64,000 bases of DNA from Haliotis cracherodii (taxonomy: Eukaryota), in NCBI RefSeq assembly GCF_022045235.1, contig NW_027266308.1, positions 22,878,001-22,942,000 of the forward strand. The letters are read 5' to 3'. The notes under the pieces were generated by a model. That model saw only the letters and a program-made list of their open reading frames with translations, was not told where the DNA came from and made no database searches. The position numbers and the translations under genes were made by a program. This document shows, one piece after another, positions 491-49,678 of the stretch (its first letter is position 1; each line of letters starts with the position of its first letter).

Positions 491-526
491 GATTCTTGCT
501 ATGAATGCACTGTAGTTACTGACAAA

Positions 527-1307: not shown

Positions 1308-1346
<39 letters not shown>

Positions 1347-3105: not shown

Positions 3106-3156
<51 letters not shown>

Positions 3157-10511: not shown

Positions 10512-10896
10512 GGTTTGGTATTTAATAAGCTGCAGCTACAAAAACATATTTCTTCTTTAAAACTATGAGCCTGATGTTTTTAAAAAGTATAATGTATATT
10601 TTTGTGGCAGGCAATTACTTTTTTTAACAGTCTGGAGTATAAATATATTTTGAAGCATTTTCGGGGCAATTTCTCTTTTTAGATACAATCCCAGAATCTC
10701 AACTGGTCGGTCCTTTCGACGATTGGGCCACCTGTGTCTTCGTACCTGTTATGACTGTGCATCCACCTACCTGAGGTGTATTACACCAATTAAACTTGGG
10801 CTCACCGTTTACACTTGTCAGGGTGTAGGTGAAGTTCGGTAAACGCATGTGAGACAATTCTGATTAAAATGTGTACTGCATTCAATATCCTTTCTA

Positions 10897-11245
10897 GACC
10901 GCCTCCGTGGTCTAGTAGTAGAGCGTCCTCCCTGAGAGCGGAAGGTTCGGTGTTTGATCCTCGGCATCGTCATACCAAAAGACGTTAAAAGTTGGTACTT
11001 GTTGTAACCCTGTCTGGCGCTCGGCATTAAGGGGCCAAAAATAGTACTGGTCGGCTCGGAGTCATTATACTGTGTCTGAGAGGGTTTTTTATGTTAAACT
11101 GCAGCATGGTATCTCAATGTGCTACCATCGGCATCAGTCCGGACTAGTACAAGCAGCCACACAAATACACACACGTATATGCACGTCGCTATATAAGTGC
11201 AGTAATCTTGGATTTCGTGTAACCACAAACCCCATTGTACTACCA
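10897..11245 (+). mobile_element. tRNA-derived SINE family A
   Basis: Homologous to 1058-1420. Confidence 0.85.
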
Positions 11246-16264: not shown

Positions 16265-19200
16265 TCAGTTGCTGACACCAAAAGTATACGATGTTGTCTG
16301 CCGGTACGTCTCCCCGGGACGTAGAACGCAGTTGGGGAAGCTTGGCTGAAACAGTGGGAGAGATGGCGGTGTTGATGTATGTCGTATATGTGTAATAACA
16401 TATATGCATATATATAGTATATAATGCATGGTAACAACACCGGTTCTCTGTGATCGTTGTCATTGTCTCTTCTGTGTAGACCAAAGCCTTAATCACTCAT
16501 CCACTTTACGGCCTATCACTTCAACAGTGCCCGTGCTGTTGCTGATTAATGCTCTGACCCATCTGACTGATGCTGTCGAGCGATGACCCACCTGATTGAT
16601 GCTGTCAGGGTAGTGCTGACCCACCTGATTGATGCTGTCAGATGCTGACCCACCTGATTGATGCTGTCAGGGTAGTGCTGACCCACCTGATTGATGCTGT
16701 CAGATGCTGACCCACCTGATTGATGCTGTCAGGGTAGTGCTGACCCACCTGATTGATGCTGTCAGGGTAGTGCTGACCCACCTGTTTGATGCTGTCAGGG
16801 TAGTGCTGACCCACCTGATTGATGCTGTCAGATGCTGACCCACCTGATTGATGCTGTCAGGGTAGTGCTGACCCACCTGTTTGATGCTGTCAGGGTAGTG
16901 CTGACCCACCTGTTTGATGCTGTCAGGGTAGTGCTGACCCACCTGATTGATGCTGTCAGATGCTGACCCACCTGATTGATGATGTGAGGGTAGTGCTGAC
17001 CCACCTGTTTGATGCTGTCGAGCGATGACCCACCTGATTGATGCTGTCAGGGTAGTGCTGACCCACCTGATTGATGCTGTCAAGCACTGACCTACCTGAT
17101 TGATGCTGTCAGGTGCTGACCCACCTGATTGATGCTGTCAAGCACTGACCCACCTGATTGATGCTGTCAGGTGCTGACCCATCTGACTGATGCTGTTAAG
17201 CGCTGACCCATCTGATTGATGCTGTCAGGGTAGTGCTGACCCACCTGATTGATGCTGTCAAGGTAGTACTGACCCACTTGATTGATGCTGTCAGGGTAGT
17301 GCTGACCCACTTGATTGATGCTGTCAAGCACTGACCCACCTGATTGATGCTGTCAGGGTAGTGCTGACCCACCTGATTGATGCTGTCAGGGTAGTGCTGA
17401 CCCACCTGATTGATGCTGTCAGGGTAGTGCTGACCCACCTGATTGATGATGTCAGGGTAGCGCTGACCCACCTGATTGATGATGTGAGGGTAGTGCTGAC
17501 CCACCTGATTGATGTTGTCAGGGTAGTGCTGACCCACCTGATTGATACTGTCGGGTAGTGCTGACCCATCTGATTGATGGAGTCAGGGTAGTGCTGACCC
17601 ATCTGATTGATGGAGTCAGGGTAGTGCTGACCCACCTGATTGATGCTGTCGGGTAGTGCTGACCCACCTGATTGATGCTGTCAGGTAGTGCTGACCCACC
17701 TGATTGATACTGTCGGGTAGTGCTGACCCATCTGATTGATGCTGTCAGGGTAGTGCTGAGCCTCCAGACAGAATCCTCCGTACTGGGAGTAGTTGGCCCC
17801 TCCCTTCCCCGCGAGGTCCTGCAGATAGAAGCTGGTGTAGAACTGCACCCCTGGCTCTGTGGTGTAGCACTCCATCCACCGTCCACTCGGCGGGTGCTCC
17901 ACTCTGTCGGCACAAAACATCTGGTTTATTGGTATCTCTGCTTCGCAGCTTCAATAAAACAAATACCTTGAGTGAGCTGCACTGAAAATGTATTGTCCAA
18001 AAGTTTACACATGGGTGGCATGTGTATTAAGGTCATTGTCATTCCAGTGGTTATACTAAAACAAGCCTCGGCTTGATTTCTGTTTCTGAAATTCATCCAT
18101 GAAAGGAAGGCTTCATAGCGACGGAAAGATAAACAGACGATAGGTTTAACATATGCGAGTCGCATGGACGATACCAACATGATGTTGAATCATCCTGTTA
18201 CCGTATTTACCCATTGAAAATACTTATATCATTTCCATAGTCCCCACCTTGCTGCAAGACGCCTTTCTCCGGACATGGACAGGTTGAAGTTGTGGTCAAA
18301 TCCTTTTCCACCGGGCACCCCTCCAAGCCGGTTCCCAAGACGTACAGGGGACCTCAGGTCCCATTCCGTTCCCTCCACTCTCCGGATCTCGCCTGGAAAA
18401 GTCCAGAGGCTACAGTAAGACGTGGTTATAAGTGGTAGAAGATCGTCAGTATATCGTCTCTACCCATGTCAAACATTACATCACCACGAGCCGTCATCGC
18501 CATGTGGGGGTTCCGTGTTGGATCTCGTCCCCAGCAACCTATGCTGAGGCGACAGATCGGACGGTCAGGTTCGCTGACTTGGTTGATTGCGTCTCATCCT
18601 ACCCCGACGGTGTTGCTGGTTGCTCAAAATATCGTTCACTTAAATGTCTGGTCCAGACTCGATTATTTACACTCCGCCGTCATATAGCTGGACTATTGCA
18701 GGTTGCGGCGTTAAACAACGAACAAACAAACAGTCGTCATAGTGTTATCTACATGCACACAAAGATAAACACGCAACTTACCAGTTGGAATCGCGCAATC
18801 ATCCACAGGTAAAAAAGACTCGGCATTGATTTGTACAACGTGATCATGAATCTTCCCCGAGCCCTGAGAAAATAAATATGCAATATGACTAACACGTGTG
18901 CCCTGGCTTAGGTGTACTGCTTGAACAAGGGGGATATGTTAGATCTTAAGAATATGCCAATGCCCAGCCAGTAGTAAATGGGTGCCCAATGGTATGTTGA
19001 GGTAATAGTATTTACAACTCTGAGGACCATGAGTGATGGTGTTGGGTTTAACGCCGCTTTATCACAATGTTTCACTTATATCACGGTATGTCGGGTTAAT
19101 GAGTGAGTGAGTATGGTTTTATACCGCTTTTAGCAATATTCCAGCAATATCACGGCGGGGGACACCAGAAATAGGCTTCACACATTGTACCCATGTGGGG

Positions 19201-22200
19201 AATCGAACCCAGGCCTTCGTCGTGACCACTAGGCTACCCCAGCGCCCGGGATCATTAATATTTGATGAATAGGGAATGGGCAGCCCAGGCATCTAAGGCG
19301 CCGCAATTAGCTGTGCAGAGTTGTGTCCCTTGAGCGCGCCAAAAACCTATGACCGTGGGTTCGAATTCCGGTTAACCCGATTAAGTTTCTAGGGTTGTCA
19401 GCACCATACCTATGCTCGAGGGTTTCACCAAAGTGGTAAACGTTGGAGATCTGCATCACTTCCAGCTTTCCACTGGAATATTGTTCAAAGCGGGTTTAAT
19501 TCCAACTCACTCATAAATAAATAAAGCAACAGTAAATGGCCACAAAAGAAGCAGCGGTCCTTCTAATGTTTGCCAGAACAGTAATAACTACCACAAGCTG
19601 GCCTGTTAACATATAGAGCCTTATTCAAGCCTGCACTGGGTGGGTGGATAAGACACAGTGCGTCTAAATGTTATATTGCGGGCTATTGAAGAGACACATT
19701 CAGTAGTGATGTTCCTCTTGCTAACCCTGTCAGTACGTGTAGTATCTGACAGGGGCGGTGGGGTAGTGATTAAAGCGTTCCCTTGTCACCCGTGTTTGAT
19801 TTCCAACATGGGTACAATTTCTGTAGCCTATTTCTGGTGTCCCCCGCCGTGATATTGTTGGAATATTGCTGGAAGCGGCGAACAATCATCTCATTCACTC
19901 ACTCACTCACTCTGACAGGGGTGTCTGAAGTAGTGTATGAGTGAGTTGAGTTTGCATCTTTTCAGTCAGATCAGACCGTGTTAGTGGAAAGAAGAACCGT
20001 TGATTGAGGTCGTAGACTCAAACCAATTTGATGAAACCCTTGAGCACAGGGCATATTGCTCATCTTGGATTCGATCCTAGGATAATTTATAAAAGACATA
20101 AGTCCTCTCTACACAAGCCTGAGACCACTTTCCCATCTCATGTCTCCCCAGTTCTGAGTTACCATGGCAACTTACATGTCCTCCAAGGTTAAAGTAACCG
20201 TGGCTGCTGAAGTTGACAGGTGTTGCCTTAGTCGATGTTGCCGTGTAGTCGATTATCAGCTCATTTTCATCAGTCAGTTCGTATGTGACTTTCAGAGTTA
20301 CCTCCCCTGGGTAGTTCTCCTCACCGTCAGGGCTGACATATTTCAGGCTCAGTCTGTTCCCATCAACCTTAGCCTCCCAGAATCTCTAGAAGTTTTGCAA
20401 CATGATGAATTAAACATACTGGCAGAAGATAAGACCCTGCATGTCACTACATTCTTCCTAACGGTGACTCAGACTATGACAGAGAGGCAGCTAGCGCTTC
20501 CTTGGTGCCAGAAGAAAATTTATTGTGACACATGTTACATTCGTTTAACACCTGACATATTCTGCTATCGGTAATAAGGACATGCGACTAGTGTTTCCAG
20601 GCAGCAAAGAGACAGTAAATCATTAAATGTCTTCCTAGAATCACTTGAACATGGATTGACATGTTGCAACTATGACGAACGTTTGTTAAGAGATGGATGA
20701 ACGGCGTCAGAGAATCGGTGCCGTTTACCACGACTTTTTAAACGTCAGCTCAGGCACCTAACAGTTGGGGGAACCTTAAGCACAGGACAATATCATTACT
20801 ATTCTGTACTAACAAATTCGAGGCGTCGTCTGAGAAGTTTCTATAGAATATTAGTCACATGGTCGTTGCTGAAACCTATGATCTAGGATATGTTGCGACC
20901 AAGTAAGCATCATAACCGAGGCCCAGCACCGACCTTGCCAAATCCCCTCTTTCCTCCATGCAGACTGTTGGGTCCATCGTTGACAACCAAAGAGTAGGAG
21001 GTGCCTTCGAGACTGAACTGTCCACCGGCGATCCTGTTGGCGACTCGACCAATCAGAGCACCGATGTACCCACTCGCAGCATAGCCTTTAGTCATGAAGA
21101 AAGTACACTCGGTAGAATATGTTTTGTGTATAGTTTCACATCAGGTTTTGGTTTCCAGTCAGTCAAATCGTTGCCGATGTTCCTATTGCTGGGATAATAC
21201 TGTATGGCAAAAAGGGGAGTATCCTATGATAGAAATTCATATTTTCAGTAGAAATATGTCTGCAGTCTTTGCCACATCTCACTTGAATCTTATACCATTT
21301 TAATCATCTGATCCCATACTCAGTTACGTAAACATCTGACCGTCTCCGTGGTCTAGAGGTAGAGCGTCGACCAGGTGAGCGGAAGGTCGGGGGTTCGACC
21401 CCCGGCCGCGTATTACCAAAAGACGTTAAAACATGGTACTTGATGTTACCCTATCTAGCGTTAGGCATTGAGGGGCTAAAACAAGGACTGTTCGGCTTGG
21501 AGTCAGTATACTGTGTCTGAGTGGGATGTTCATCTTAAACTGCGGCGTGGTATCTCATTGGGCTAGCACTATAAATTGGCATCAGTCCGGACTAGTACAA
21601 GCAGCCACACACACGTGCATGCACGTCGCCATGTAAGTGCAAGAATCTTGGACGCTTCGTTAAACCCAATTTCACCTCACCTCACCGTAAACACTGACCC
21701 GTCAAGATCCGGGTTAGAATACATCTTCAGCATCCCATGCTTGTCTTAAGATGCGACTAATGGGATCGGGTGGTCAAACTCGATGACTTGGTTGATGCAT
21801 GTCATTGCATCCCAATTGCGTTGATCGATGCTCATGATATAGGTCACTGGATTATCTGGTCCAGACTCGATTATTTATTGACACGTGTAGGGAATGGGTG
21901 TCATACGTATCAGTGAGGAATCGCGACCATAAGGCGTGCAAGAAACCGTTACTCATGGCTTCAACTCCAGGGTCGCTCTGGTCTATTTATTGGTACATGT
22001 ACCGTATGTTAGCACCATACCCATACTCGTGGGTATCACCAAAGTGGTGACAATCTGCATTACTCCAAGCTGGCATGTGGTTAGATAAGTTAAATACTGT
22101 TCAAAGCGTTTAACCACGAAACTCACTTGAAAATTTGCCGTTGCAAATTCACATTTGTACACAATATCGTTTCTTACAATATTTTTAACAGACCTTGACA

Positions 22201-25200
22201 GATCTAATGGTGTTTATTGTGTTTAAGTAACATTCGTTGTAGACACTTCTACAATGTGCAACGTGTCCTCGACAATTATGCGAAATGTGTTGCTATTTCG
22301 AGCCTACCTTCCATATCATCAAAGCCGAGGCTGACGTCCTCCTTATTGCCCTTTCTGTCCGGGACGATGATGTCAGTGATGATGCCGCCATAATCTAGGA
22401 CTCTCACGATGACGTTGTTCTTGTTCTGGAACGTGTATCTGGAACAGTGAAACGTAGACTCTTCAAGCTCCATTGTAACATGCAGACCAAGCAGACCAAG
22501 AAGGCCAAGCAGACCAAGCAGGCCCAGCATACCAAACAGACCAAGCAGACCAAGAAGGCCAAGAAGGCAAAATAGACCAAGCAGACCAAGAAGGCTAAGC
22601 AAACCAAGCAGACCAAGACGCACAAGCAGAACAAGCAGACCAAGATGGCCAAGCAGACCAAGAAGGCCAAATAGACTAAGCAGACCAAGACGGACAAGCA
22701 GACCAAGAAGGCCAAATAGACCAAGCAGACCAAGAAGGCTAAGCAGACCAAGAAGGCCAAGAAGGCCAAATAGACCAATCAGACCAAGAAGGCTAAGCAG
22801 ACCAAGAAGGCCAAATAGACCAAGCAGACCAAGACGGACAAGCAGACCAAGAAGGCCAAGAAGGCCAAATAGACCAAGCAGACCATGAAGGCTAAGCAGA
22901 CCAAGAAGGCCAAGAAGGCCAAATAGACCAAGCAGACCAAGACGGACAAGCACACCAAGCAGACCAAGACGGACAAGCAGACCAAGCAGAACATGCGCAA
23001 GCATGTCCACCTTGGTGTACTTTATTCAGCCGCGTTTGGAAATCACAACTTTGACCAACACAAAGCGGTGCATGTCAGTGATCATGGTTTTACGCCAGTT
23101 TTATCTCGACATAGGACAAGAATAAATGGCTTCACACATGTGTCTTTGGTGTGACGAGCCAAAGATCAAACCAATCTGCACATTTAAACAGAGAAAACAT
23201 GTCCGGACATAACATATACTCTTAAAAAAAAAGAAACGCAATAAAGATATTTTGGGCCATAAAATCAAAATTAGCCAATGCAGCAGCACTATGAACGGTA
23301 TTGAAGCGTATCCGACACCGCCCAAAATCGCTACATCCGACTGCGCCACCTACGTGAAAGGAAGACCACAGCCACCTCAACCGCATCTCAAATAACAGGA
23401 CTGCGCAGAATCTCCGACCATACCGTACGAAACCGTTTAAGAGCAGCAGGTCTACGAGCAAGACGTCCTGTTCGGCGCGTCATATTGAGTCGACAACATC
23501 GTCAACAACGACTGCAATGGTGTCGTCAACACAGGATATTGTCTCCACTGCGATGGAGAGATGTCTGGTCCAGCGACGAATCAAGATTTCTCCTCCGGCG
23601 TGGGATGGGTCTGCAGACGCCGGAGAGAATGTTACGCTGGAAACTGCGTACAGGAAGTGGACAGGTTTAGTGGGGGTAGCTTTATGATGTGGGCGGCTAT
23701 CTCTCATCATGGCAGGACAGGTTTGGTCCATAACCAGGGAAATCTTAAGGCTCAACAATACCACACGTCCTCCCAATTGCAGCCAACGGCAACGGTGTAT
23801 TCCAACAGGACACATACATCACGGATCGCAAGAGTCTGTCTACACAATGACAACGTTGATGTTCTCCCCCGGCCCTCCAAATCCCCGAATTTGAACCCGA
23901 TAGAGCACCTGTGGGATGAATGGGATAGAAGGCTACGCCGACGTCAACCACAGCCCAAGGCATTGCAACAGTTGGCTTTTGCGTTGCAGGCCGAGTGGGA
24001 ATACCATTCCCTAGGATGTGATTCGCATACTCGTTTCTTCCATGGGCAGGAGATGTCAGGCCGCTATCGATTCCAACGGAGGACATACGCGTTATTGATG
24101 GTAGCTGACCTTCACCTTGGACGTTTCCTTTATACCGATAACTGAGATGACTACAATCACCTAGCGTTCTACAACATTTAGGCTCAATACCTTGTACGGT
24201 TCCTCGTATAAATGTATTTTCCCACCTTACACAAATCTGGCTTTGCGGGTTTTATGAGTATAAATGAGATGTTCCTTCCCAACTTTGCTGGACCATCCAC
24301 ATTCCACTCCCGTGGAGCACCAACACGTCCATTGTTATCCAGGCGAAGCGGCGGTCCCGTGACTAATGCCACTATTACTTATGAAGGACTAGTAGGGTTG
24401 AGTTATAATTCTCAACTCAAAACAGTATGTGAATATCACAGAAAACATTCACATACCTAATTAATATCTAGGTAAACATTCCGACACTGACATAAGATAG
24501 ATATTTAAAATGTTACCTGTATGTATGGATATTTAACACGTGTTTCGTCTAGTTCCAGAGAATGCATAATATAAAGAACTTGCCCATCCATTTATCGGAA
24601 ACATTACGGTAAAGCCTTTTATTAACTAGATATATCATTCAATCGAAGCCTTATGGTTCAAGACAAATCCTTTTCGGATCATCAATTATCGTCACTCCGC
24701 ATTTTCATCATCATAAGAAATCTTTACTGCACGATTCCGACTTTATTATAAGTATGTGTTTATGAATGATACCAGGTGTTCGGGAAAAGGTGAGCGTATC
24801 ATGTCGCGCGACACAAACACATGCAAAGGCAAGGAAAAACTAATGAAGATTGTTTGGTCACAGTGCTTGACCTGGCCGACATTAAGCTGACAGCGACCAC
24901 CCTTGTTTATTCTAACAACAACCATGCTCGAAAATTTACACACCACAATTATGAAGCTGAACTATTGCTGATTGCGGCACAAAACAGCCACATTTCACTC
25001 CGTAGTACCGCAAAACTCGATACAAGTTCGCTCTACAAAGAGATGTCAGCAATACGACTGCCGTAAGTCTATGTTAAAGTATAGTAGTTGCTATTATCTC
25101 TTGAAACTGGGTTTCACTGTTCGCAGCGATAAATTAACTATCAGTGTGTATCCTGGAGTGCCTGTCTGATAACCTAATCACGACCCCTTCAAAACAGCCT

Positions 25201-25332
25201 TAGTCTCCCTACGTAGACTTCAAACATCAGATGGTACATACGCACATCCCTGAACTAAACACTCCAGTCATGTCACCTTGTAACTTCCTCGCCTTCTGTA
25301 GTTTTACCAAATGAATCCTTCGTGATCGGCAT
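16265..25332 (-). CDS. GALM: Galactose mutarotase / aldose 1-epimerase, paralog A (intron-7 donor mutated; possibly altered C-terminus or incipient pseudogene)
   Basis: Exons: 25277-25332, 22308-22438, 20934-21085, 20176-20385, 18782-18863, 18248-18392, 17732-17903, 16265-16345. Total 1029 nt with consistent phases. Motifs [36 protein letters not shown]. All junctions are GT-AG except the exon-7 donor, which reads CAG|ATGGGT. Confidence 0.9.
16540..17759 (-). repeat. 33-bp exon-end/splice-donor minisatellite (GALM-A intron 7)
   Basis: Tandem CAGCACTACCCTGACAGCATCAATCAGGTGGGT with shortened variants, continuous with the end of exon 7. Confidence 0.95.
21338..21686 (+). mobile_element. tRNA-derived SINE family A
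   Basis: Full-length homolog; flanking cgtaaaca repeat. Confidence 0.88.
22483..22990. repeat. 9-bp tandem repeat (CCAAGCAGA / CCAAGAAGG)n in GALM-A intron 1
   Basis: Direct 9-nt periodicity immediately upstream of the exon-2 acceptor. Confidence 0.93.
23215..24130 (+). mobile_element. Tc1/mariner transposon remnant in GALM-A intron 1
   Basis: Frameshifted transposase: ISDHTVRNRLRAAGLRARRP, RLQWCRQH..W..V.SSDESRF, CVQEVDRFSGGSFMMWAAIS, PSKSPNLNPIEHLWD. TA-flanked TIR-like start tatactcttaaaaaaaaagaaacgca. Confidence 0.9.
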
Positions 25333-26870: not shown

Positions 26871-29800
26871 TCAGTTGCTGACACCAAAAGTATACGATGT
26901 CGTCTGCCGGTATATCTCCCCGGGACGTAGAACGCTGTTGGGGAAGCTTGGCTAAAACAGTGGGACACGTGATGGTGTTAATGTGTGTTTTATATGAGCA
27001 CATATATCACGAGTTTAAAAAATAATCACACGACACGAATTGTTCTATACTGAAGATAAAACTGAAACATGTGTTCGTATGGTGTGATTATTTTGTGAAT
27101 TTATCCATATACATGCATGTATATCCCCTGGTAATCCTGGATACCCAGGGTCATATCTGACCTACTACAATAATGTGCTTGAGACCCAAGAAACAATCTG
27201 GCCTACCCCTTGATAGTGCTGGAGATGCATATACTATCTCTCATGTCTGATTGATGCTGTCAGGGTAGTGCTGACCCACCTGACTGATGCTGTCGGGGTA
27301 GTGCTGACCCACCCGATTGGTGCTGTCAGGCTTGAGCTGACCTACCTGATTGACGATGTCAGGGTAGTTCTGACCCACCTGATTGACGATGTCAGAGTAG
27401 TGCTGACCCACCTGATTGACGATGTCAGGGTAGTTCTGACCCACCTGATTGACGATGTCAGAGTAGTGCTGTCCCACCTGATTGAAGCTGTCGGGGTAGT
27501 ACTGACCCACCTGATTGATGCAGTCAGGTGCTGACCCACCTGATTGATGCTGTCAGGGTAGTGCTGACCCACCTGTTTGATGCGGACAAGGTAGTGCTGA
27601 CCCACCTGATTGATGCTGTCAGGGTAGTGCTGAGCCTCCAGACAGAATCCACCAAATTGGGAGTAATTGGCCCCTTCTTTCCCTTTCAGATCTTTAATGA
27701 AGAAACCGGTGTAGAACTGAACTCCTGGCTCCGTGGTGTGGCACTCCATCCACCTCCCACTCGGCGGGTGCTCCACTCTGCAATCAGCCACCATCTTTGT
27801 ATATCAAAATGCTAGTTTCCAAAAAAAAGGAACAACAACAAACACTCGTTAACTCGAAGTCATTTGGACCATCTACTGTTTCAAGTTATCCAATTAGATC
27901 GAGCCACAATGAGTGCCAATAGTACATAGCCTGATACCTTGAGTTCACACTTTGTCACTGCATTATTTGGTTCAGTCACACTGTAATCTCATAAAAACGA
28001 TAAATGTATTTCAGAAATGTGTGTAACCTGTTTTACTTAAACCTAGAGATACGAGACAACAGATAACTACTGGGTTCACTGGTTTCTCCGATTATTTGAA
28101 GGGTGGTTTGGAAATGGTTGCTTCTTTGCCCTGCAGATACGGACGGGCGAATGGTAAAACACAATTATGCCTGATTCCGAAAAAGGCGATACCAACAGTA
28201 GATTGAACAGGCCTAACAGGTATATCTATCCACGCATTATCATTTCCTAATGGACGTTGCAAGGCTCATACATGATGTGGAAATATCCTGTTAACGTATT
28301 TACCCATTGGAGCAGAAATGGTAAGATTCCAAAGTCCCCACCTTGCTGCAAGACGCCTTTCACCAGACACGGACAGGTTGAAGTTGTGGTCAAATCCCTT
28401 TCCACCGGGCACCTGTCCAAGCCGGTCCCCAAGACGTACAGGGGACCTCAGATCCCATTCTGTTCCCTCCACTCTCCGGATCTCGCCTGGAAAATTCCAT
28501 AGAATACAGTAGGACGTGGTTATAAGTGGATCGTCAGATCATCAGAAAATCGTCTCTACCCATGTCAAACATTATATAACCACATCGTGGCCAATAGTTA
28601 CAGATTTACCTGTTGGAATCGCGTTGTCATCCACAGGTACGAAAGACTCTGCATTGAGTTGTACAACATGATCGTCAACTTTCCCTGAACCCTGACAAAT
28701 GAAAACATACAACATGACTGATACGTGTCCTCAGGATTATCACGAACGTAAAGAACGTAAGAGTGAGCTTGATTTTGCGCCGCTTTTAGCAATATTCCAG
28801 CAATATCGTGGCGGGGGACATCAGAAATGGGCTTCACACATTGTACCCATGTCTGGAATCGAACCCGGGTCTTCGGCGTGACGAGCGAACGCTTTAACCA
28901 CTATGCTACACGACCGTCCTAAGAACGTAAGAACACTCAGTGTAGCAAACATTAATACGTCAAATCTTCAACTGTTGATGTCTCCTAAAGCCTTAGCCGT
29001 GAACTTGCTATTGTCACGAAGAACCATGAATAAGCAAAGTACCGTTCGAGGAACGACTTGCAGGTTCATACCTGTGTGACATACCATTTCCAAACTCATT
29101 AGCAATACAACAACATTGACGTAAAAGGCAAAACCATGGTGAATAATATACGCAGGGATCAGCCAGGTGTTAGCGAATTAAGCCACACAATATCACTATA
29201 AGACCACAGTAGCCCCCGATATAATGTCATGCGTCACTGAGGACACGTCACAATGTGGTGGCACTGTTCGGTGCTCCAAGGACAAGGTTCACATTCGTGG
29301 TTACTCTTCGAATCCAGAAGCTACGAGATCCCCATAATCCCATCGGTGTCTGAAGTTTTTTCTTAGTACTTTGATATCAATATTCCAATCAACAAATATG
29401 TACTGGCATATTATTATTACAATGCAAACCGACATGTCCTGAAGAGTTGAAACAACCATAGCAACTCACATGTCCTCCCAGATTGAAGTAAGCGTGGTTG
29501 GTGAAGTTGACAGGTGTTGCCTTGGTCGATGTTGCCGTGTAGTCGATGATCAACTCATTCTCATCTGTCAGTTCGTATGTGACTGTCAGAGTTACCTCCC
29601 CTGGGTAGTTCTCCTCACCGTCAGGGCTGACATATTTCAGGCTCAGTCTGTTTCCATCAACCTTAGCCTCCCAGAATCTCTAGAAGTTTTGCAACATGAT
29701 GGATTAAACATATTGGCAGACCATAAGTAAGTAACATCTGCAAGTAACTACATTCTTCACAACGGGTTACTCAGACTACGATAATGAGGAAAATGGATAG

Positions 29801-31678
29801 TGACACATGTTACATTCGTTTACAACCTGACATGTTCTGCTATCTGTATTTAGGACACACGACTAGTGTTTCCTGTCAGCCAAGAGACATCTCCCCGAGG
29901 CAAGAGAGTTAACTGACTTTAAAAGTCCAGTTTCCACCCTTGGAACTAGGCTCGAATTCCTGGGCTCGATCGTAGCACCTCCAGTGGTCCTATGGACCAA
30001 TCCGATTCCATCACTTGCATTTGTTTCAAACAAAATGGCGTCGCCCGGTAAAAGACGATCTGATCGATCATCAAGGTCTATATTGGGATAAAACGGGTAC
30101 ATCGCGAGGTGCATCAAATCAAGCGAGGAAAGATGGCCTCGGGAAGATGGCCAAGAGACAAACAGTAGATTGAGACGTATTTCTTTCACCACATTTCCAA
30201 TTGAGAGATCGCATGGAGAGGGAATGCTGTTGAGTTCATCGTTGTGTAGCCAAAGAATCGGCCACCGTCACAGACCTACAACTGACCTTGTCAAATCCTC
30301 TCTTTCCCCCATGTAGACTGTTGGGTCCTTTGTTGACAGCCAGAGAATAGGAGGTGCCTTCGAGACTGAACTGTCCACCTGCGATCCTGTTAGCGACTCG
30401 ACCAATCAGAGCACCCATATATCTGCCCCCAGCATAGCCTTGTGTCATGTAAGAAATGAGGAACATGAGATGATCTAAGAATATGATGGGGATCTATTAA
30501 TGTGAAGGGTTTTTCATATTATCGATATACTTATATTGTAAAAGAGAATATATACATACAATGTAATTGTTATGTATGTAGTCATAGACAATCAAGTAAA
30601 ATATCCCCTATCCTCTGCCTACCTTCCATATCATCAAAGCCGAGGTTGACGTCCTCCATCTTGCCCTTTCTGTCCGGGACGATGATGTCAGTGATGATGC
30701 CGCCATAATCTAGGACTCTCACGATGACGTCGTTCTTGTTCTGGAACGTGTATCTAAAAAGACGTTTTTCTTTGCTAGTTACAGACGCCCATGAACGTTG
30801 AATACTGACATGTTCCTGTATGTCTGATACACTTCACCAGTACATCCAAGACAGGCGGGACAGTTAGGTGGCACCGAGGGAAGTGCCACTGGGCGCCATG
30901 CAGACCTAGTAGGGTTCAGATTGGTATACCCTGTGATCAAGGCAACAATTAAATAACAAAACCTGGGCGAGACACACCAGTGGTTGATAGCATGAACAAC
31001 GATTGTCATTGTTGACGGCTCCAATGTTTTTTCAGCGTGCTCACGGGATAACCCCAAGGAAGCCAAGTCTAGTGTTACAGGGGTATCAAACATCATGTCA
31101 CAACAATAGAACATTCTACGTGTGGCTTGTAGCAGTTGGTGAAATGAATATATTTTGCAATATATGGAAATGCATTCTCAGGTATGATGTTGACTAGAAA
31201 ATATGAAGCAGATCTGCAAATAATATGACCGAACTGTTTATCTAAGTAAGCACTCACTCACTGAAAAAAGACTACACGTTATCTACATGTCCAGGTTAAA
31301 AATGTACATGATGAACAACAATATGCTAATCCTGTATATATATAAGAACGATTGCATTCTTATTGTAAGCCTGTGTATGTTCCAGAACAACCATATGCAG
31401 GAATGACGGTCAATCCATTCCTTTACAGAAGCATTAGGGTTATATAGAAGATTCCTACAATTTGCATGACCATATGGGGGTGTCCTAGATTTTCTGACTT
31501 CATCAGCTGTGATAACACTGTCCCTGACCCATTTACACAAATATCACTGGACGCAGGACGATTGCCTTAAATGATCACACTTTTGCATGTACACGTCATT
31601 AACATTGACCATCTCATGTTACCTTGTAACCTCCTCGCCTTCTGCAGTTTTACCAAATGAATCCTTCGAGATCGGCAT
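26871..31678 (-). CDS. GALM: Galactose mutarotase / aldose 1-epimerase, paralog B
   Basis: Exons: 31623-31678, 30623-30753, 30287-30438, 29470-29679, 28610-28691, 28342-28486, 27606-27777, 26871-26951. All GT-AG, 1029 nt. Motifs [30 protein letters not shown]. Confidence 0.95.
27247..27633 (-). repeat. 33-bp exon-end/splice-donor minisatellite (GALM-B intron 7)
   Basis: Same unit, about 12 copies, with GACATCGTC variants. Confidence 0.95.
28763..28920 (-). mobile_element. SINE family B (TSD AAGAACGTAAGA)
   Basis: TSD at 28751-28762 and 28921-28932. Confidence 0.9.
29888..30149 (+). mobile_element. Mutator-type MITE, internally deleted (9-bp TSD GCCAAGAGA)
   Basis: Same family termini; TSD at 29879-29887 and 30150-30158; empty site in the paralogous GALM-A intron near 20600. 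Confidence 0.88.
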
Positions 31679-39651: not shown

Positions 39652-42600
39652 TTAGCTGCTGATGCCGAACTTGTAAGACGTCGTCTGTCTGTATGTTTCC
39701 CCTTGACGTAGAACACAGTTTGGGAAACTTGGCTGAAACAGAAACCTACGCCTGCAGAAGGTGATGCATTGCCAGCACTGGTCACGTGTATTGAAACATT
39801 GATATCACTAGTTGGTTAACCTTATTCAGAACGGTCATCCCACAGAAAGACATCTTCATAACATTGGTTTCATCCGATGAATCTAAGGACATACATTTAT
39901 TATTTATCATTTCACAGGCCCGCCACCTTTACTAGCAAGCTTCCGGTCTAAGAAATAAATTAAACAAAACAATATTTATTTAAATTATGTCTCCTGCTAG
40001 TAATATGGGCCCTCTTATACAATACAAAAAAATTATATAAATTCCATGTCTACATCATTATCAGAAATTCAAGAGGCCACCTGCAGTTTTAACTCCACAG
40101 CAGAATGACTTTCATATGGACAAATAAATAATTGACGATTGTTTTTATATGGACCCACTTGGTGTGGAAAAGCTGGAATAAGTCTGTGAAACATATAATT
40201 AAAATAGTGTAGCCTACTCATACATGGGAAAACAATAATGCATCATCTACCACAACAAGCATCCAATGGGATGCTGTCAGGATAGTGCTGACCCACATGA
40301 TTGATGCTGTCAGGGTAGTGTGACTAGTGCTGACCCACCTGATTGTGGGAGTCAGGGCAGTGCTGACCCACATGATTGATGCTGTCAGGGCAGTGCTGAC
40401 CCACCTGATTGAGGGAGTCAGGGTAGTGCTGACCCACCTGATTGATGCTGTCAGGATAGTGCTGACCCACCTGATTAAGGGAGTCAGGGTAGTGCTGACC
40501 CACCTGATTGATGCTGTCATGGTAGTGCTGACCTACCTGATTGAGGGAGCCAGGGTAGTGCTGACCTACATGATTGATGCTGTCAGGGTAGTGCTGACCC
40601 ACCTGATTGAGGGAGTCAGAGTAGTGCTGACCCACATGATTGAGGGAGTCAGGCTGGTGCTGACCCACCCGATAAATGGAGTCAGGGCAGTGCTGACCCA
40701 CCTGATTGAGGGAGTCAGGGTAGTGCTGACCCACATTGGTGCTGTCAGGGGTAGTGCTGACCAACCTGATTGATGCTGTCAGGGTAGTGCTGAACCACCT
40801 GATTGATGCTGTCAGGGTAGTGCTGACCCACCTGATTGAGGGAGTCAGGGTAGTGCTGACCCACATGATTGATGCTGTCAGGGTAACACTGACCCACCTG
40901 ATTGATGCTGTCAGGGTAGTGCTAACCCATCTGATTGATGATGTCAGGGTAGTGCTGACCCATCTGATTGATGCTGTCAGGGTAGTGCTGACCCATCTGA
41001 TTGATGGAGTCAGGGTAGTGCTGACCCACCTGATTGATGCTGTCAGGGTAGTGCTGACCCATCTGATTGATGGAGTCAGGGTAGTGCTGACCCATCTGAT
41101 TGAGGCTGTCAGGGTAGTGCTGACCCATCTGATTGATGCTGTCGGGTAGTGCTGACCCACCTGATTGATGCTGTCAGGGTAGTGCTGACCCATCTGATTG
41201 ATGGAGTCAGGGTAGTGCTGACCCATCTGATTGATGGAGTCAGGGTAGTGCTGACCCACCTGGTTGATGCTGACAAGGTAGTGCTGACCCACCTGATTGA
41301 TGGAGTCAGAGTAGTGCTGACCCATCTGATTGATGGAGTCAGAGTAGTGCTGACCCATCTGATTGATGGAGTCAGGGTAGTGCTGACCCATCTGATTGAT
41401 GGAGTCAGGGCAGTGCTGACCCACCTGATTGATACTGTCGGGTAGTGCTGACCGATCTGATTGATGGAGTCAGGGTAGTGCTGACCCACCTGATTGATGC
41501 TGACAAGGTAGTGCTGACCCATCTGATTGATGCTGTCAGGATAGTGCTGACCCACCTGATTGATGGAGTCAGGGTAGTGCTGACCCACCTGATTGATGCT
41601 GTCGGGTAGTGCTGACCCATCTGATTGATGCTGTCAGGGTAGTGCTGACCCACCTGATTGATGCTGTCAGGTAGTGCTGACCCACCTGATTGATGCTGTC
41701 AGGGTAGTGCTGACCCACCTGATTGATGCTGTCAGGGTAGTGCTGACCCACCTGGTTGATGCTATCAGGGTAGTGCTGAGCCTCCAGACAGAATCCTCCG
41801 TACTGGGAGTAGTTGGCCCCTCCCTTCCCCGCGAGGTCCTGCAGATAGAAGCTGGTGTAGAACTGCACCCCTGGCTCTGTGGTGTAGCACTCCATCCACC
41901 GTCCACTCGGCGGGTGCTCCACTCTGTCGGCACAAAACACTTTGTCACACTTCACCTTCATCACACACAGTTCAGACATTCAAAATGTATGCTTGTGTTG
42001 AACTTATCTTGAAATGTGCCATCATGCTTATCATGTTATTGATTTGAAACTATTCATTACTCCAAACAATTTGCCTTCTCACCTTGCTGCAAGACGTCTT
42101 TCTCCAGACAGGGACAGGTTGAAGTTGTGGTCGAATCCCTTTCCCCCAGGCACCTGTCCAAGCCGGTCCCCAAGTCGTACAGGGGACCTCAGGTCCCATT
42201 CTGTTCCCTCCACTTTCCGAATCTCACCTGGAGTAGATACTTAATGTGTTCAGACAGTGAATTTGATTGTGTATAAGATAAGTTAGATCATGATACATGC
42301 ACTTTGTTGAAGCATATAAGTTGTGGTGTTGATTTGGATCTGGAACCTTTGAAAACATCAAAGAACAGCCCTTAGTTCTTTGTACCAAATATAAAAAAAT
42401 CATTCTTAGGGAGCAGCAGCACAGAGGTGGGTTACAGCAGCTGACACAAGTGTAGTATTGAACTTAGTGGTCACAATGTACCAATGCAGATCACGTAAGG
42501 GATTTGTACCTGTAGGAATAGAGTTTTCATCCAGGGGCAGAAAATGTTCCGCATTGATCTGTACAAGATGATCGTCAACCTTCCCTGATGCCTGCCAAGA

Positions 42601-45600
42601 GATTTTGTAATTTCATTTATAAAACATCTTTATATCAAACTATCAGCCATAGGGAGCTGAATGATGTTTTCTATATGAGCAGTCTTCAGTAGAAGCACAA
42701 CAATGCACCATCATATTCACAATTGTTTGTTTGTTTGTTGTCTATTGCCGCACTCAGCAATATTTCAGCTATATGACAGCGATCTATTATTTTCATGTAC
42801 TGCAATGCAGTACAACACATATATATATGGCAATAAATTTGACAGACATGAATTTACATAAAAGATTGTAATTGCTGTAATGTTCCTGAAGTTAATATTA
42901 AGCTCAATATATAAATTGTAATTCCATGGCATTTCATTGGCTAGCCAAGCAATTCTTTTTTGAATTTTTTAGGCCAAGCCCAAAAGCAGACTAATGTTCG
43001 CTGACTGGCTGAGAATAAAATGGGCGGTGCTTATCATGGGCGGATACAGAGGGGGGATGGGGGGGGGGGGGGGGGGGAAGAGAGGGTGTGTGTGTGTGTG
43101 CGGGGGTGCGCACCCCCCCTTTTTATTTCGAAAAAAATCTTTATTTCTGTATAAATTACCACCAAAGACAATAAATAGATCTTAATTGTGCACCCCCCTT
43201 TTCAAAAAAGCTGTATCCGCCCATGCTTATGTTGCGTTAAATATTACTCTGAATGATGTCACTGATTTCATACAGTTGTCTACATTTTTTTGTGTGTTAT
43301 TGATTAAATGTATTAAAGTCTTATTCTATTGTTGACATAGATATTTATTAGAATATACTTCAACATGTCAGTATATGTAACTCCATAAAGGCAAAAACAT
43401 ATTGAAGTCAATCCTTTATAACACTTTGCCATAACTCTTCCTGGAATACCAAGAATAGTAAGTACAAAGTTTATTTAATTCTATTTTACCTGATATTCTA
43501 TTGAACCCAGCACAGTATGATTTCAAAACTTGACTTCCTAACTGATCAGTGACATTTGAACCTTTTGACATCTACAACTACTACTTTGAATGCTATATTT
43601 TAACACATAAATACCAGACCATGCATGATTAATTGTTCCCATAGCAACTCACATGTCCTCCCAGATTGAAGTAGGCATGGTTGGTGAAGTTGACAGGTGT
43701 TGCCTTGGTCGATGATGCCGTGTAGTTGATGATCAGCTCATTCTCATCTGTCAGTTCGTATGTGACTGTCAGAGTTACCTCCCCTGGGTAGTTCTCCTCA
43801 CCGTCAGGGCTGACATATTTCAGGCTCAGTCTGTTGCCATCAACCTTAGCCTCCCATAGTCGCTAGAGAGGTGAAACATAGTGCCCCTGTTAGTATAAAC
43901 CTCAGTCAGTGTAACTGTAGGGGATCCATATCAGTAGCGAGATTCTTTACAGGCATTTAGAAGCTAGCTGGCATATGACAAGGAAGAAAATGGATCATGT
44001 GGATGACCACTTCTTTAATGTATATACAAATTACAATGAAGAAGTTGCGTTCCCTGTCAAGTAACATTAATCATAAAACATGTCAGGTGATGTGATAATA
44101 ACACGGAGTTTAAATATGATTATTGCACTTGTGTGTTATATATGTGTGCTTGTACTAGTCTGGACTAATGTAAGTTTTATTGTGCTAAAACACTGAGATA
44201 CCATGCCACAGTTTAACATAAATACCATCTCAGACACAGTATACTGACTCCAAGCCGACCAGACCTTGTTTTAGCCCCTTAATGCTGAGCTCCATTTAAG
44301 GGTAACAAAAAGTACAATCTTTTGGTATGACACGGCCAGGGATCAAGCCACCGACCTTCTGCTCTCTTTGCAGATGCTCTATTCACGGAAATTAGTAGTC
44401 GAAGAACATAAATGTTTCGAAGCAGACTTTTTTTCATGAAACTGACACAGATATGATCAATATTTCAACAAAATAGTCCCACCAAACTCTAAATTATGTA
44501 TTCTGTTCAAGACCCTGAAGGACTTGTATAGTTTGAACTTTGGAGACCCTTCCCATATTCTCATTGGCCCTTCACACCATCTGTAACATGGCCCTAAATC
44601 ATACCAAGCAATCAACCTGTACGTCCATAACCATCACAATCCCAAACACGCCAACATCTGACTTACATGAAAAGTTAGTTTACAAATTACACACAATGGA
44701 GGATTGCTAAAACACTTACAAACAATTTTTTGAAAGACATTTTTGTTTGGGTTCTACAGTGTTATTTTAAGGTTGAGAACCTGTTCTACTGAGGAACACC
44801 TGTGAGCTTCATATTATGACTGTTGTAAGTCTTGTTTAAGAGTTTTGACAGCCGTGGCACCAAACATGCAGAATGGGGCCTAATGTCTCAAAGCAACTTT
44901 GCACTTCAAATAATCTCTTGTGCCTCAAGTACGATCACAAGAGTTTGTTTGTTGTTTAACACCGTACTAAGCAATATTCCAGCTATATGAAGGCGGACTG
45001 TAGATAATCGAATCTGGACCAGACAGTCCAGTGATTGATATCATGAACATCGATCTAGGCAACTGGGGTCTGATAACATGCATCAACCAAGTCAGAGAGC
45101 CTGACCACCGATCGCAAGAGCTTTTTTTTGTTTGGTTTGTTCTTTGATGCTGCACTCGGCAATATTCCAGCTATATGACCACTTGGTCAGTAAATAATCA
45201 AGTCTAGACCAGACAATCCAGTGATTGACATCATAAGCATCAATTCACACAATTGGGATACAATAACATACATCTACCAAGTCAGTGAGTCTGACCACCC
45301 AATTTCGTTAATCGCATCTTACAAGCAGTCACCTTTTACAGTAAACCCGGATTGCTGAAGACCTATACTATCCTGGATCTTCATAGATCCGACGCAAGAG
45401 TGTGTGAATATGGTTTAACACTGCCTTGAACAGTATTCCAGTGATATCTCAGTGTCAGCTTAATGTGGGAGGAAAGCCTGAAGTGCTGCAGGTCTCAGAC
45501 GTTTACCACTTTAATGAAACCCAAGGACACGTGTACGGTGCTGACAAACCAAGAAACAATAATTATCGCAGGAACCAAACCTTTGCAGGAACCAAATCCA

Positions 45601-48600
45601 AACTATGGAAGGTCAAGTAGACATGTGTAAAGAACACAACCACTCAGATCCTTGCATTCAGTTTAAGAAAATGGTAATTCTACTCATCAAAGGAGGACAC
45701 ATGCTTCAGTTATTCATACTGATATCATATTGAGATCATCTTCCCGAGGCAAGTGAGTTAACTGACAATAAAAGTCCAGTTTTCACCCTTGCCGAACTAG
45801 GCTGGTATTATGGAGTTACATTTTGGCTGGACTAACGAGTCTATGCATAGTCCAATCAAAATCGCGCACCGAAATCCGGTTCGTAAAGTGTCATGCAGAT
45901 TTCGGTCGACTGCAGGATTTGCAAAGCATGTGCACCGCTAACTCGTTGTCAACAGATATTTTCTAAATCTTTTCATGTTTTTAATCAAGGTGCTCATGTG
46001 ATTTGATGCACTTCGCGATGTAAGACTCGTTTTATCACAATATAGATCTTGATTATCGATCAGATCGTCTTGACTGGGCGCCACCGTTTTGTTTGACACA
46101 AATGCAAGTGATACGAGAGGTGGAATCTAATTGGTCCATAGGAGAGGCATAGAAGGTGCATAACTCGTATTAGCCACTGGTGGCGCTACGATCGAGCCCA
46201 GGAATTCCAGCCTAGTTCGGCAAGGGTGGAAACTGGACTTTTAAAGTCAGTTAACTCCCTTGCCTCGGGAAGATGTATTGAGATGTACATACGTTCACTG
46301 TCCAAAATAACTGCCTTTTCTGTCGGGCTGCATCAAATTTTCCTCCACCTACCCAACTGTTGGGCAGATAATTTTAAGACTACTTATTCATTTTTCTTAT
46401 TACTCCTTGTAGACTCTCAAGTAATTGTTTGCAATATTTCAACTGAATCAAGACTTGATTTGTCTCTTAGTTTTTGCGATTTTTTAATATTTATAATGTC
46501 TGAGTGCGGGCAGGTAACTTTGAAGATGGGCAGGCAACACTTTGGGGCACCTACTCTACTGTCTTGTTGGGTTTAAAAATTATTTCAACATTGCGCAAGT
46601 TCCAGTGGAAAATGCAGATTTAGCTAAAGTTTTCCCCAACAGTGTACCTGCTTATTCTCAGTGTACTCTCACCTTGTCAAATCCTCTCTTTCCTCCATGC
46701 AGACTGTTAGGTCCATTGTTGACAAACAGAGAGTAGGAGGCGCCATCTAGAGTGAACTGTCCACCGGCGATCCTGTTGGCGTATCGACCAATAAGAGCAC
46801 CCATGTATGGACCCCCAGCATAGCCTAACCGGAAATATGTAGGTCAAAATTAGCTTAACCAGTTCTTTCTTCCTAACACACCTGAATTTAAGTCCAAACA
46901 ACAAAATGTAGAAAGTATTTTAGCTTGATTTTTTTAGACAAAATATATCAGTAGTTTTTAATTGATTCACTTTATATTTCCGCCATTGAATTATCATGAT
47001 CATATGTTGGAAGTATACATCAATTAATTCTAAAGCATAACACATATTTTGACTGCCATGATGGAAGTATGCTAAACAGTTTTCAAGGAAGTAAAATACT
47101 TTACAATTGTGACCCTCCAGGATGAAAGGGACCTTATGGGTGCTAGGATACAATTGTGCTGTGACGTCATAAAGATGTTTGATGTCAACTTACTTCAGTA
47201 AAAATTGCCATGTGTGCAAACTGTACAAACATAGCTTTTTTTCTCTCATTAGTTCATAATGTAATAGAAAAAGCATTTAAAAAAACTTTCAGCATACACG
47301 TCTATTTTCCATTGAACAGACATTATATCTAAAAACTGCAATTATTTTTAATTTTTTACACTTAAAGTTTTAAGTCAGTAAATGAGTCCAAATGTTTGAA
47401 GCTTGTGAATTCTATTTTTGTGTTCCGAAGATGTAGTTTTAAAATATAAGGAGAAGTCAAAATCTGATTTTGTCACCCAAAGGTCCCTTATCACAAAGTT
47501 GGTCACATTTATTGTTGCAGGACCTACCTTCCATGTTATCGAAGCCGAGACTGACGTCCTCCATCTTGCCCTTCCTGTCCGGGACGATGATGTCAGTGAT
47601 GATGCCGCCATAATCTAGGACTCTCACGATAACGTTGTTCTTGTTCTGGAACGTGTATCTGAAATTAGGAAACAGATCAATTTGTGGATTAATGTTTATA
47701 TAATTGATATATTATTTTAAACTGTCTAGATAAACAGAAGTATAATCTGAGTGTCTTTTGATATTACTTATCAACACAAGTATTCAGAGGCTTGCTAAAG
47801 AGGACATTTTCTACTTTTCTTGACCAATGTTAATATATATGATATCAAACCATAGGAGGCTGAAGTTATTTTTTATCCAATATCATTCATGCTCACTTAT
47901 TTCCTACAATCACAATGTATCAATTTGATCACCACAATGAAATCTGAGACCATTTTGAAATTATGAAGCTGCAAAAAACATCAAATATAATTATAATGTA
48001 TTCGACATATAAGCGCCCGGGCGCTCTCAAAATTAGAAATAAGGGGCTCTTATTAGAATGTTATTTTGGTGAAAAAAACAGAGTTGAAAGATAAATTTTG
48101 TGGTTTATGCTGACAGCCTGAAATGTTTATGTACGACGGATATATTTTTCCAGAATTAAATGCCCATAATTAAGGGTGCATATAACACACAAGTGCGTAT
48201 TCTACAAGAATAAATAAGTCTTGTGTACATTGATCAATCGGAAGGGGTGCTAATTGGGATTGTTCACTAGCCAATATCTTAGCAAATGTCGCCGTGGGCG
48301 GTTATTAGAGCGGGGCTGATTACGTCGAATACGGTAATCAGCTGCTTAAAAGTGAATCATGTGAAGATCGGCTTCAAATGTAGACCATTTTGATTTTTAA
48401 CTTTTCACTGACTGATATTTAAAAAAAAGAAAGTATTTCACTAAGAGGCTAAGAAAAACCTGTCATATTACCAACGAAGGGCAAAGTTGCGTATTTAATA
48501 TACACACTGCCATCAATGTTGGTATTTAGGCCTACAGGTAGTATCTTTGCAAGGCACACTGTAAAATGATGATAACTACTGGCCTATGTCTTGTATCTAT

Positions 48601-49678
48601 TGTAGCAACTGATAGGGACTTCAAACGGTTTTGCTTTATGTTTCCCACAGCTAAAATGTGTTTGTGGAAAAAGAGTCACAAGACTACAGTAAGATTAAAT
48701 AAACTATAACCTTGAAGCCAAACAATATTTATAAAACATGTAAGTAGTTTTAGGAAATTGAGATAACTTTACAGCTTTGGGGGTTGAACAAGCTGCAAAT
48801 CGGTTTTATGGTAATATTAACCGGTTTCCTCACATAACCCAAACATAATCTGATTCCGGCAATAATCGTATCAGTTGTTTATTGACAAACAATGGAGAAA
48901 ACAGACAGATATATGATAAAGCTCTATTATTGGGGGGATCAAATGAAAATCTAGTCTTCCTATCGCCGTCTGGCAGTGAGTATGTATACCCTCTTATAGA
49001 CCCCAGTTCTAAGCCACAGGCAACAGCGATAATTCTAGGGTGGGACATTGTGCTTTTAGCCGCTAAATGTGAAAAAACGGCCCACATTTTCAAATACAAG
49101 GAGGTATTTTAACATTTTGCTGTATGGGCGTAGATCTACCTCTAGGATATTTGAAATTTTCACATGAATGGCACATGTCAGAAAATTCCTAGAGTGAACC
49201 CTGGACCCCTGAAGCAGGTTCAGTGATATTACTGAAACACTGGACCGATATGAATAAATTGTCAGTCCAGAATTTTCCACACTACACTAGGTAGGCCTAC
49301 TAGATTCTATTTACCGCTATTTACCCCCACCCCCTTCTCAAATGTATCAGCCCATGCTCCTGAAATTATGAGAGCTACATTGTGGGTCCCCACATAGGAC
49401 AGATTTCTTTGAACTGTATAGATAACCATATTGCAGGGACTATGTGTCTCGCTCGTCCGGACAGTGAAATGACACGTCTGATTCGTGCTGTGGTTCAACT
49501 GGTTGTTTCAAATAGATCTAGATATCTAGGTCTGTTTGGTTCCAAACTGTAGATTTACGTATGGATGTCAGATGTCATTAACGACACGTGAAATCAAAGT
49601 ATGCGTGGAATACTACTGTCACCTTGTAACGGCTTCTCCTACCGCGGATTTACCAAACGAATCTTGACTGATCGACAT
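39652..49678 (-). CDS. GALM: Galactose mutarotase / aldose 1-epimerase, paralog C
   Basis: Exons: 49623-49678, 47528-47658, 46673-46824, 43653-43862, 42510-42591, 42083-42227, 41752-41923, 39652-39732. All GT-AG, 1029 nt. Motifs [30 protein letters not shown]. Confidence 0.95.
40270..41779 (-). repeat. 33-bp exon-end/splice-donor minisatellite (GALM-C intron 7)
   Basis: Same unit, roughly 45 copies, with GACTCC(A/C)TC and ATGGGT variants. Confidence 0.95.
43035..43225. mobile_element. Small TIR element with 5-bp TSD (CTTAT), hAT5-like
   Basis: Perfect TIR CATGGGCGGATACAG / CTGTATCCGCCCATG; cttat on both flanks. Confidence 0.75.
44110..44380 (-). mobile_element. tRNA-derived SINE family A, degraded
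   Basis: Reverse-complement homology to family A body. Confidence 0.75.
45737..46275 (-). mobile_element. Mutator-type MITE (about 75-bp TIRs, 9-bp TSD TATTGAGAT)
   Basis: TIRs at both ends; TSD at 45728-45736 and 46276-46284; internal sequence is the reverse complement of the 25671 copy. Confidence 0.9.
47998..48336. mobile_element. Tc1/pogo-type MITE
   Basis: Inverted termini gtattcgacat...gcgccc / gggctgattacgtcgaatacggta. Confidence 0.55.

What the first reader, a model, noticed from the sequence alone, without database searches (positions are those of the whole stretch)
17681..17760. GALM-A has lost its canonical intron-7 donor to an array-type GT>AT variant
Seen: at the position equivalent to the donor of B (27605) and C (41751), GALM-A reads CAG|ATGGGT (17731). 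ATGGGT is a common variant unit inside the arrays, which suggests the repeat overwrote the functional site by unequal exchange (inference). The next GT donor follows a 32-nt unit. Splicing there would read exon 8 in a shifted frame ([14 protein letters not shown]...ILFRQ stop at 16201), whereas read-through stops at 17681 ([16 protein letters not shown] stop). Either way the normal C-terminus [14 protein letters not shown]...FGVSN would be lost, although exon 8 is still intact, so the event looks recent or polymorphic.
Basis: partly seen in the sequence, partly recalled or inferred. Interest (0 to 1): 0.7.

Follow-up and report, generated by a model that had tools for sequence, protein, structure and literature searches.

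The report
Repeat array erases abalone splice donor
One of three neighbouring galactose-mutarotase genes in an abalone has lost the GT splice signal at the end of its seventh exon, likely because a GT-less repeat unit was copied in from a sister gene, which would likely make this allele non-functional; repeats spanning such splice signals are already known from human genes.

Summary
Observation confirmed. GALM-A reads CAG|ATGGGT at 17731; paralogues B and C read CAG|GTGGGT. In all three genes a 33-bp minisatellite repeats the exon-7 end plus donor. The A lies inside a patch of about 390 bp likely copied from GALM-C: 175 nt are identical to C, and 6 of 6 proximal variant units occur in C's array against 0 of 21 distal ones. 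Assembly error is unlikely: one short-read sample holds the exon-anchored AT junction. Another shows only non-AT junctions, so it is probably polymorphic. The next donor, at +32, is identical to the authentic one and would shift the frame. Human F7 intron 7 behaves this way. In-frame escapes exist, including the +21 site that NCBI's model uses, but pair with U1 more weakly than all 20 authentic donors. A orthologues in three other abalones have normal junctions, so A is an old conserved paralogue and this is likely a recent loss-of-function allele. No RNA was tested. New member of a known kind; interest 0.3.

The parts
16265..25332 (-). GALM-A, 8 exons (25332-25277, 22438-22308, 21085-20934, 20385-20176, 18863-18782, 18392-18248, 17903-17732, 16345-16265); 342 aa if intron 7 were spliced at the homologous site
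   Evidence: NCBI protein P0001 has the same sequence plus a 7-aa insert
17732..17903 (-). Exon 7 of A; holds the Glu306 that aligns to the human catalytic glutamate (role recalled); last 27 nt are repeat unit 0
17726..17731 (-). Lost donor: ATGGGT where B and C have GTGGGT
   Evidence: junction also in run X4
17705..17710 (-). Cryptic in-frame donor at +21 (ACA|GTATCA), used by the NCBI model; very weak U1 pairing (-2.3 kcal/mol)
17694..17699 (-). First intact repeat donor at +32 (CAG|GTGGGT), identical to the authentic donor; out of frame; predicted main site
17690..17695 (-). Weak in-frame donor at +36 (TGG|GTCAGC), overlapping the +32 site
17532..17919 (-). Inferred conversion tract from GALM-C: end of intron 6, exon 7 and array units 0-6
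   Evidence: 175 nt identical to C 41939-41765; units 1-6 have variant bodies found in C's array, none in B's
16554..17759 (-). 33-bp minisatellite of A (38 units of 29, 32 or 33 nt), each repeating the exon-7 end and donor
16265..16345 (-). Intact exon 8 of A (26 aa including the last predicted beta-strand); AAG at +5 is a possible second acceptor
26871..31678 (-). GALM-B, intact, GT donor at 27605, array 27247-27633
39652..49678 (-). GALM-C, intact, GT donor at 41751
40270..41939 (-). C exon 7 and its 45-unit array (14 of 44 internal hexamers lack GT): inferred source of the converted tract

Best explanation
GALM-A carries A instead of G at the first base of intron 7, inside a patch likely copied from the paralogue GALM-C, and splicing is predicted to move to the identical repeat donor 32 nt downstream, which would shift the frame and likely inactivate this allele. 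Shown: the base change, the donor-repeating array, the C-like patch, and the AT junction in one short-read sample. Inferred: ectopic conversion from C, or later shuffling of the imported units, joined the exon end to an AT-type unit followed by a 32-nt unit. Predicted: the product keeps residues 1-316 and replaces the last 26 residues with 58 foreign ones; the stop lies in the last exon, so decay of the message is not expected. B and C remain intact, so the animal likely keeps mutarotase activity. The allele is likely polymorphic in an otherwise conserved paralogue.
For: A and C are identical over 175 nt (17919-17745), while they differ at 120 of 858 nt in the other exons. A units 1-6 have variant bodies found in C (6 of 6) against 0 of 21 distal variant bodies (Fisher p 3.4e-6, units not independent). 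All 3 of 3 CCGACAGT-type units in the window follow an AT hexamer, against 19 of 81 AT hexamers overall. The longest exact matches across 17731 are array-internal: 58 nt at 17569 and 50 nt at 41620. Run X4 holds the exon-anchored AT junction. The +32 donor pairs with the genome's own U1 5' end at -11.4 kcal/mol, equal to the strongest of 20 authentic donors; +4, +21 and +36 score -5.1, -2.3 and -5.1, weaker than all 20. In human F7 minigenes, killing the first donor of a 37-bp array gave one product, from the donor in the second unit (PMC1557585, Results part 1). Human p.Trp311*, which truncates about 6 residues before this junction, is pathogenic and unstable (PMC8628924 passage; alignment). 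A orthologues in three other Haliotis species have the normal junction and are 88-96% identical.
Against: No transcript was examined. NCBI's model P0001 splices in frame at +21; whether RNA supports it is unknown. The X4 record cannot be phased to A, since its first 45 nt are shared with B. Polymorphism is only weakly shown: X4 shows no GT connection although B should supply one, so these contigs drop real branches and the lack of AT in X5 is not proof. Of 8 runs laid, 1 shows the AT junction, 1 shows only non-AT junctions, 2 cross the site with differences whose places are not listed, 1 has no crossing record, and 3 raw-read runs cannot be assigned to a paralogue. The F7 precedent is mammalian. 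A lone G>A point change inside the tract is not formally excluded. At protein level B is the diverged exon 7 in all four species, so exon-7 closeness of A to C is partly old.
Confidence: 0.62

Rival explanations
1. The change is real but largely rescued: splicing uses an in-frame cryptic site (+21, +36, or +32 with the AAG acceptor), giving a 349-354 aa enzyme with a 7-12 residue loop insertion.
For: The routes are stop-free. NCBI's P0001 is exactly the +21 product. The insert falls in a segment without secondary structure, and the model keeps the mutarotase fold (TM 0.87 to human 1snz). +21 lies upstream of +32, which a scanning mechanism could favour.
Against: +21 and +36 pair with U1 more weakly than all 20 authentic donors; small-PWM scores -9.0 and -5.0 against 2.0-8.4 for authentic sites. 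+36 overlaps the strong +32 site. An annotation pipeline would choose a frame-keeping GT without RNA evidence (inference). pLDDT is under 50 at residues 313-326, so the model says little on tolerance.
Confidence: 0.13
2. The AT is fixed in the species and GALM-A is a young pseudogene or truncated gene in this lineage.
For: AT seen in both the assembly and X4. Contigs drop branches, so AT may be hidden in other runs. A has a few private changes such as K50N and M51K.
Against: X5 shows two exon-anchored paths, neither AT: one with G counted at 17731, one with the last two letters unaligned. X2 and X3 crossing records differ from the reference allele at 4 and 2 places. No other lesion in 8 exons. 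Most A-specific residues are shared with orthologues in three species.
Confidence: 0.12
3. Independent G>A point mutation at +1, unrelated to the array.
For: One base explains it; an exon end with array-consensus letters also occurs with a non-AT donor in X5.
Against: The A is linked to a unit type that follows an AT hexamer in 3 of 3 cases, and the 58-nt context is duplicated inside the array.
Confidence: 0.06
4. Assembly or polishing error caused by array reads.
For: The base lies at an array edge, and exon 7 is duplicated in C. Raw reads at 17731 are mostly G (2 of 2, 10 of 13, 9 of 9).
Against: X4 holds the junction, and one 31-letter word spans both the exon-specific base 17760 and 17731. 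No internal hexamer in the window mimics the exon there. The raw reads come mostly from array units, or from B or C. The unit order of A 0-6 is not a contiguous copy of C.
Confidence: 0.07

Closest known systems
Human F7 intron-7 37-bp VNTR (PMC1557585; abstract, Results part 1 of 3 and two passages read)
   Same: First repeat unit spans the exon-intron boundary; identical downstream pseudo-donors; loss of the first donor activates the next one.
   Different: In F7 the donor loss is a patient mutation tested in minigenes. Here it likely came from the array itself through exchange with a paralogue. The unit is 33 nt and stop-free, so backups are usually in frame, but A's first unit is 32 nt. 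No splicing data here.
Donor-repeating minisatellites of CBS intron 13, interferon-induced 6-16, lamin B2 and PDGFA (seen only as cited in the PMC1557585 introduction)
   Same: Arrays that reiterate an exon-intron junction.
   Different: Single-gene cases about which pseudo-sites are used; here three tandem paralogues share the array.
Internal tandem repeats altering human paralogues in segmental duplications (PMC2812944; outline and abstract read)
   Same: Repeat variation at exon-intron boundaries changes splicing among paralogues.
   Different: Abstract stresses new introns and amino-acid repeats in young primate duplicates; these paralogues are old and the result is donor loss.
Galactose mutarotase (aldose 1-epimerase, PF01263); human GALM p.Trp311* allele (PMC8628924, two passages read)
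   Same: Same fold and family; truncation at nearly the same place removes the C-terminal strand.
   Different: Abalone keeps two intact paralogues; the predicted product has a foreign tail rather than a plain stop.

Membership tests
Donor-spanning minisatellite (F7 IVS7 type) | First unit spans the exon-intron boundary | tested here: met
   Unit 0 is the last 27 nt of exon 7 plus the donor hexamer in A, B and C
Donor-spanning minisatellite (F7 IVS7 type) | Downstream units carry pseudo-donors identical to the authentic one | tested here: met
   GTGGGT in 31 of 38 A units, 9 of 11 B, 27 of 45 C; U1 pairing equal to authentic
Donor-spanning minisatellite (F7 IVS7 type) | Next pseudo-donor is used when the first is lost | not testable with these tools
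   No RNA holder listed for this organism
Donor-spanning minisatellite (F7 IVS7 type) | Copy number varies between individuals | not tested
Ectopic gene conversion between paralogues | Bounded tract of near-identity to one paralogue with flanks of the host gene | tested here: met
   175 nt identical to C; intron 6, distal array and exon 8 remain A-type; one shared exon-7 record joined to both introns in X1-X5
Ectopic gene conversion between paralogues | Direction from donor to acceptor, non-reciprocal | tested here: inconclusive
   Unit sharing points from C to A for the array part; protein alignment leaves the direction of older exon-7 exchange open
Galactose mutarotase (PF01263) | Sequence and fold of the family | tested here: met
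   E 5.5e-98 to human 1snz; Foldseek TM 0.87; Pfam PF01263
Galactose mutarotase (PF01263) | Catalytic His and Glu present (roles recalled; PDB titles list L. lactis H96, H170, D243, E304 mutants) | tested here: met
   H105, H175, D243 and E306 align with human residues and lie in exons 3-7
Galactose mutarotase (PF01263) | Enzyme activity of the A product | not testable with these tools
   Needs an assay

The most novel reading that the evidence does not exclude
The shared array is a reversible switch: repeated exchange between paralogue arrays flips the exon-7 donor between GT and AT, so abalone populations carry on and off alleles of a sequence-distinct mutarotase that arise and revert far faster than point mutation allows.
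Probability: 0.12. Interest if true: 0.65.

Novelty: new member of a known kind. Interest (0 to 1): 0.3.

Why it matters
If true, it is a natural invertebrate case of a minisatellite destroying the splice donor it was built from, with the source traceable to a neighbouring paralogue. It offers a simple test of whether the nearest-donor rule shown for human F7 holds in molluscs. It also warns that the public 349-aa model of this gene may be an annotation patch over a broken allele. The effect on the animal is likely small because two intact paralogues remain.

Tried and rejected
First gene model had exon boundaries off by one base; corrected, and its per-exon difference counts were kept. Run search: no RNA holder listed; this says nothing on expression. 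Raw reads X18-X20: about 1 in 100 of each run read; counts at 17731 mix array, B and C reads, and two X20 reads that reach from the donor well into the exon read G but may come from C, so they were not used for A's allele. One search listed no 'other letters' because differences lay near record ends; X2 and X3 could not be read at 17731, and X1 had no crossing record. 'A is a decaying copy' was rejected: its 13 amino-acid-changing against 16 silent private codon changes (B: 2 and 11) are mostly shared with orthologues. Minor-class AT-AC intron rejected: the hexamer and the AG end do not fit (consensus recalled). Selection for in-frame backup units in B and C is not claimed: most units are 33 nt, so chance suffices. 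Paper searches: Haliotis plus galactose mutarotase gave 1 unrelated listing; conversion, minisatellite and donor terms gave 2 listings that were not read. Earlier scan notes: none.

Full report
Setting. The window lies in a 1.18-Gb, 80-contig genome and holds three tandem galactose mutarotase genes on the minus strand, C, B and A in order of transcription. Each has 8 exons and 342 codons, and 20 of 21 donors are GT. Only three copies of exon 7 were found in the genome. The NCBI protein P0001, labelled Haliotis cracherodii, equals my A model plus a 7-residue insert, so the window is most likely from that abalone.

Observation. A reads CAG|ATGGGT at 17731 where B and C read CAG|GTGGGT. Each intron 7 starts with a 33-bp minisatellite whose unit is the last 27 nt of exon 7 plus the donor hexamer: 38 units in A, 11 in B, 45 in C. 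The next intact donor in A is at +32.

Is the base real? Eight runs labelled as one organism were laid. X4 has a 47-nt record matching 17730-17776 over its full length with no other letter. Records overlap by 30 letters, so the words are 31 long, and one word covers both the exon-specific base 17760 and 17731. The 47-mer is unique in the window, but its first 45 nt are shared with B, so the locus is not phased. X4's share of words (0.79) is no higher than X1-X3, so it does not stand out as the source, though that is not excluded. X5 shows two exon-anchored paths: one with G at 17731, one whose last two letters do not align. X2 and X3 cross the site with 4 and 2 unlisted differences, X1 has no crossing record, and the three raw-read runs cannot be assigned to a paralogue. 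X4 shows no GT connection although B should supply one, so these contigs drop real branches. I put the base as real at about 0.9, and polymorphic rather than fixed at about 0.75.

Origin. A and C are identical for 175 nt, from 17919 in intron 6 to 17745, against 120 differences in 858 nt of the other exons. In the other exons A sides with B at 74 sites and with C at 20. One shared exon-7 record joins both introns in X1-X5, so this identity is not private to the assembly. A's array units 1-6 all have variant bodies found in C and none in B, while 0 of 21 distal variant bodies occur in C. This points to a tract of about 390 bp copied from C into A. The unit behind the lost donor is a rare 32-nt type; all 3 of its copies in the window follow an AT hexamer, against 19 of 81 overall. 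The longest exact matches across 17731 are inside the arrays (58 and 50 nt). The A therefore likely arrived as part of an array module, either with the conversion or by later shuffling. This is inference; unit counts are not independent.

Consequence. There are also stop-free in-frame routes at +21, +36 and +32 with a second acceptor, and exon-7 skipping, which shifts the frame and removes Glu306. NCBI's model uses +21. Using the genome's own U1 5' end, the +32 site scores -11.4 kcal/mol, equal to the authentic exon-7 donors and the best of 20. The +4, +21 and +36 sites score -5.1, -2.3 and -5.1, below all 20 (range -5.5 to -11.4). In human F7 minigenes, loss of the first donor of such an array gave a single product from the second unit (PMC1557585, Results part 1). 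I therefore predict +32 as the main site. The product would lose the last 26 residues, which include the final predicted strand (residues 337-347 of the 349-aa model). Human p.Trp311*, about 6 residues earlier by alignment (numbering offset recalled), is a pathogenic, unstable variant (PMC8628924 passage). No transcript was examined, so this step is predicted only.

Is A a dying copy? Probably not. Orthologues in H. rufescens, H. rubra and H. asinina have the plain junction, share A's diagnostic residues such as SSHGYF and GFGK, and are 95.6, 92.1 and 88.3% identical. An H. rubra model of C translates similar repeat units (P0021), so the array is old. The lesion is the recent part.

Comparison and novelty. 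Arrays that repeat an exon-intron junction are published for F7 and are cited there for CBS, 6-16, lamin B2 and PDGFA. Repeat-driven splice changes among paralogues are described in PMC2812944 (abstract). Five searches of the held library listed no paper on abalone GALM, and no title in them names donor loss by exchange between paralogue arrays; most listings were not read, and the library lacks most subscription journals. No supplements were read. The parts are known processes, so I file it as a new member of a known kind.

Verdict. A real, likely polymorphic splice-donor loss, likely caused by the array and likely inactivating one of three paralogues. Interest 0.3. The boldest reading left open, a recurrent and reversible GT/AT switch, gets probability 0.12.

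Noticed in passing
proteins P0002, P0020, P0022 (H. rufescens) and P0018 (H. rubra): Several NCBI models are chimeras of paralogues, such as C exons 1-6 with B exons 7-8. They are either read-through splicing across the tandem genes or mis-mapped reads.
   Followed up: no
protein P0021 (H. rubra): A C-type model translates array units and part of exon 8 in another frame; it shows the array exists there and may reflect assembly indels.
   Followed up: partly
protein P0012 (H. rubra): An A-type isoform ends five residues after exon 7 with a different last exon.
   Followed up: no
window 17761; runs X5 and X20: A G>A change (minus strand) gives Thr for Ala right after Glu306, as in human GALM; it marks one of two equal-depth exon-7 paths in X5.
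   Followed up: partly
window 20176-21085: A-type GALM differs at conserved motifs (GFGK for GFDK, SSHGYF for TNHAYF) in all four abalones, hinting at a different sugar preference.
   Followed up: partly
window 22482-22990: A 9/27/99-bp tandem array ends about 45 nt before the exon-2 acceptor of A and is absent from B and C.
   Followed up: no
window 35010-36774: A 40-bp minisatellite of 44 copies between B and C.
   Followed up: no
window about 32600-33000, minus strand: Stretch that reads like a LINE reverse-transcriptase fragment (motif recalled, by eye).
   Followed up: no
window 25662-26192, 29887-30121, 45722-46284: An element with terminal inverted repeats in three dispersed copies around B and C.
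   Followed up: no
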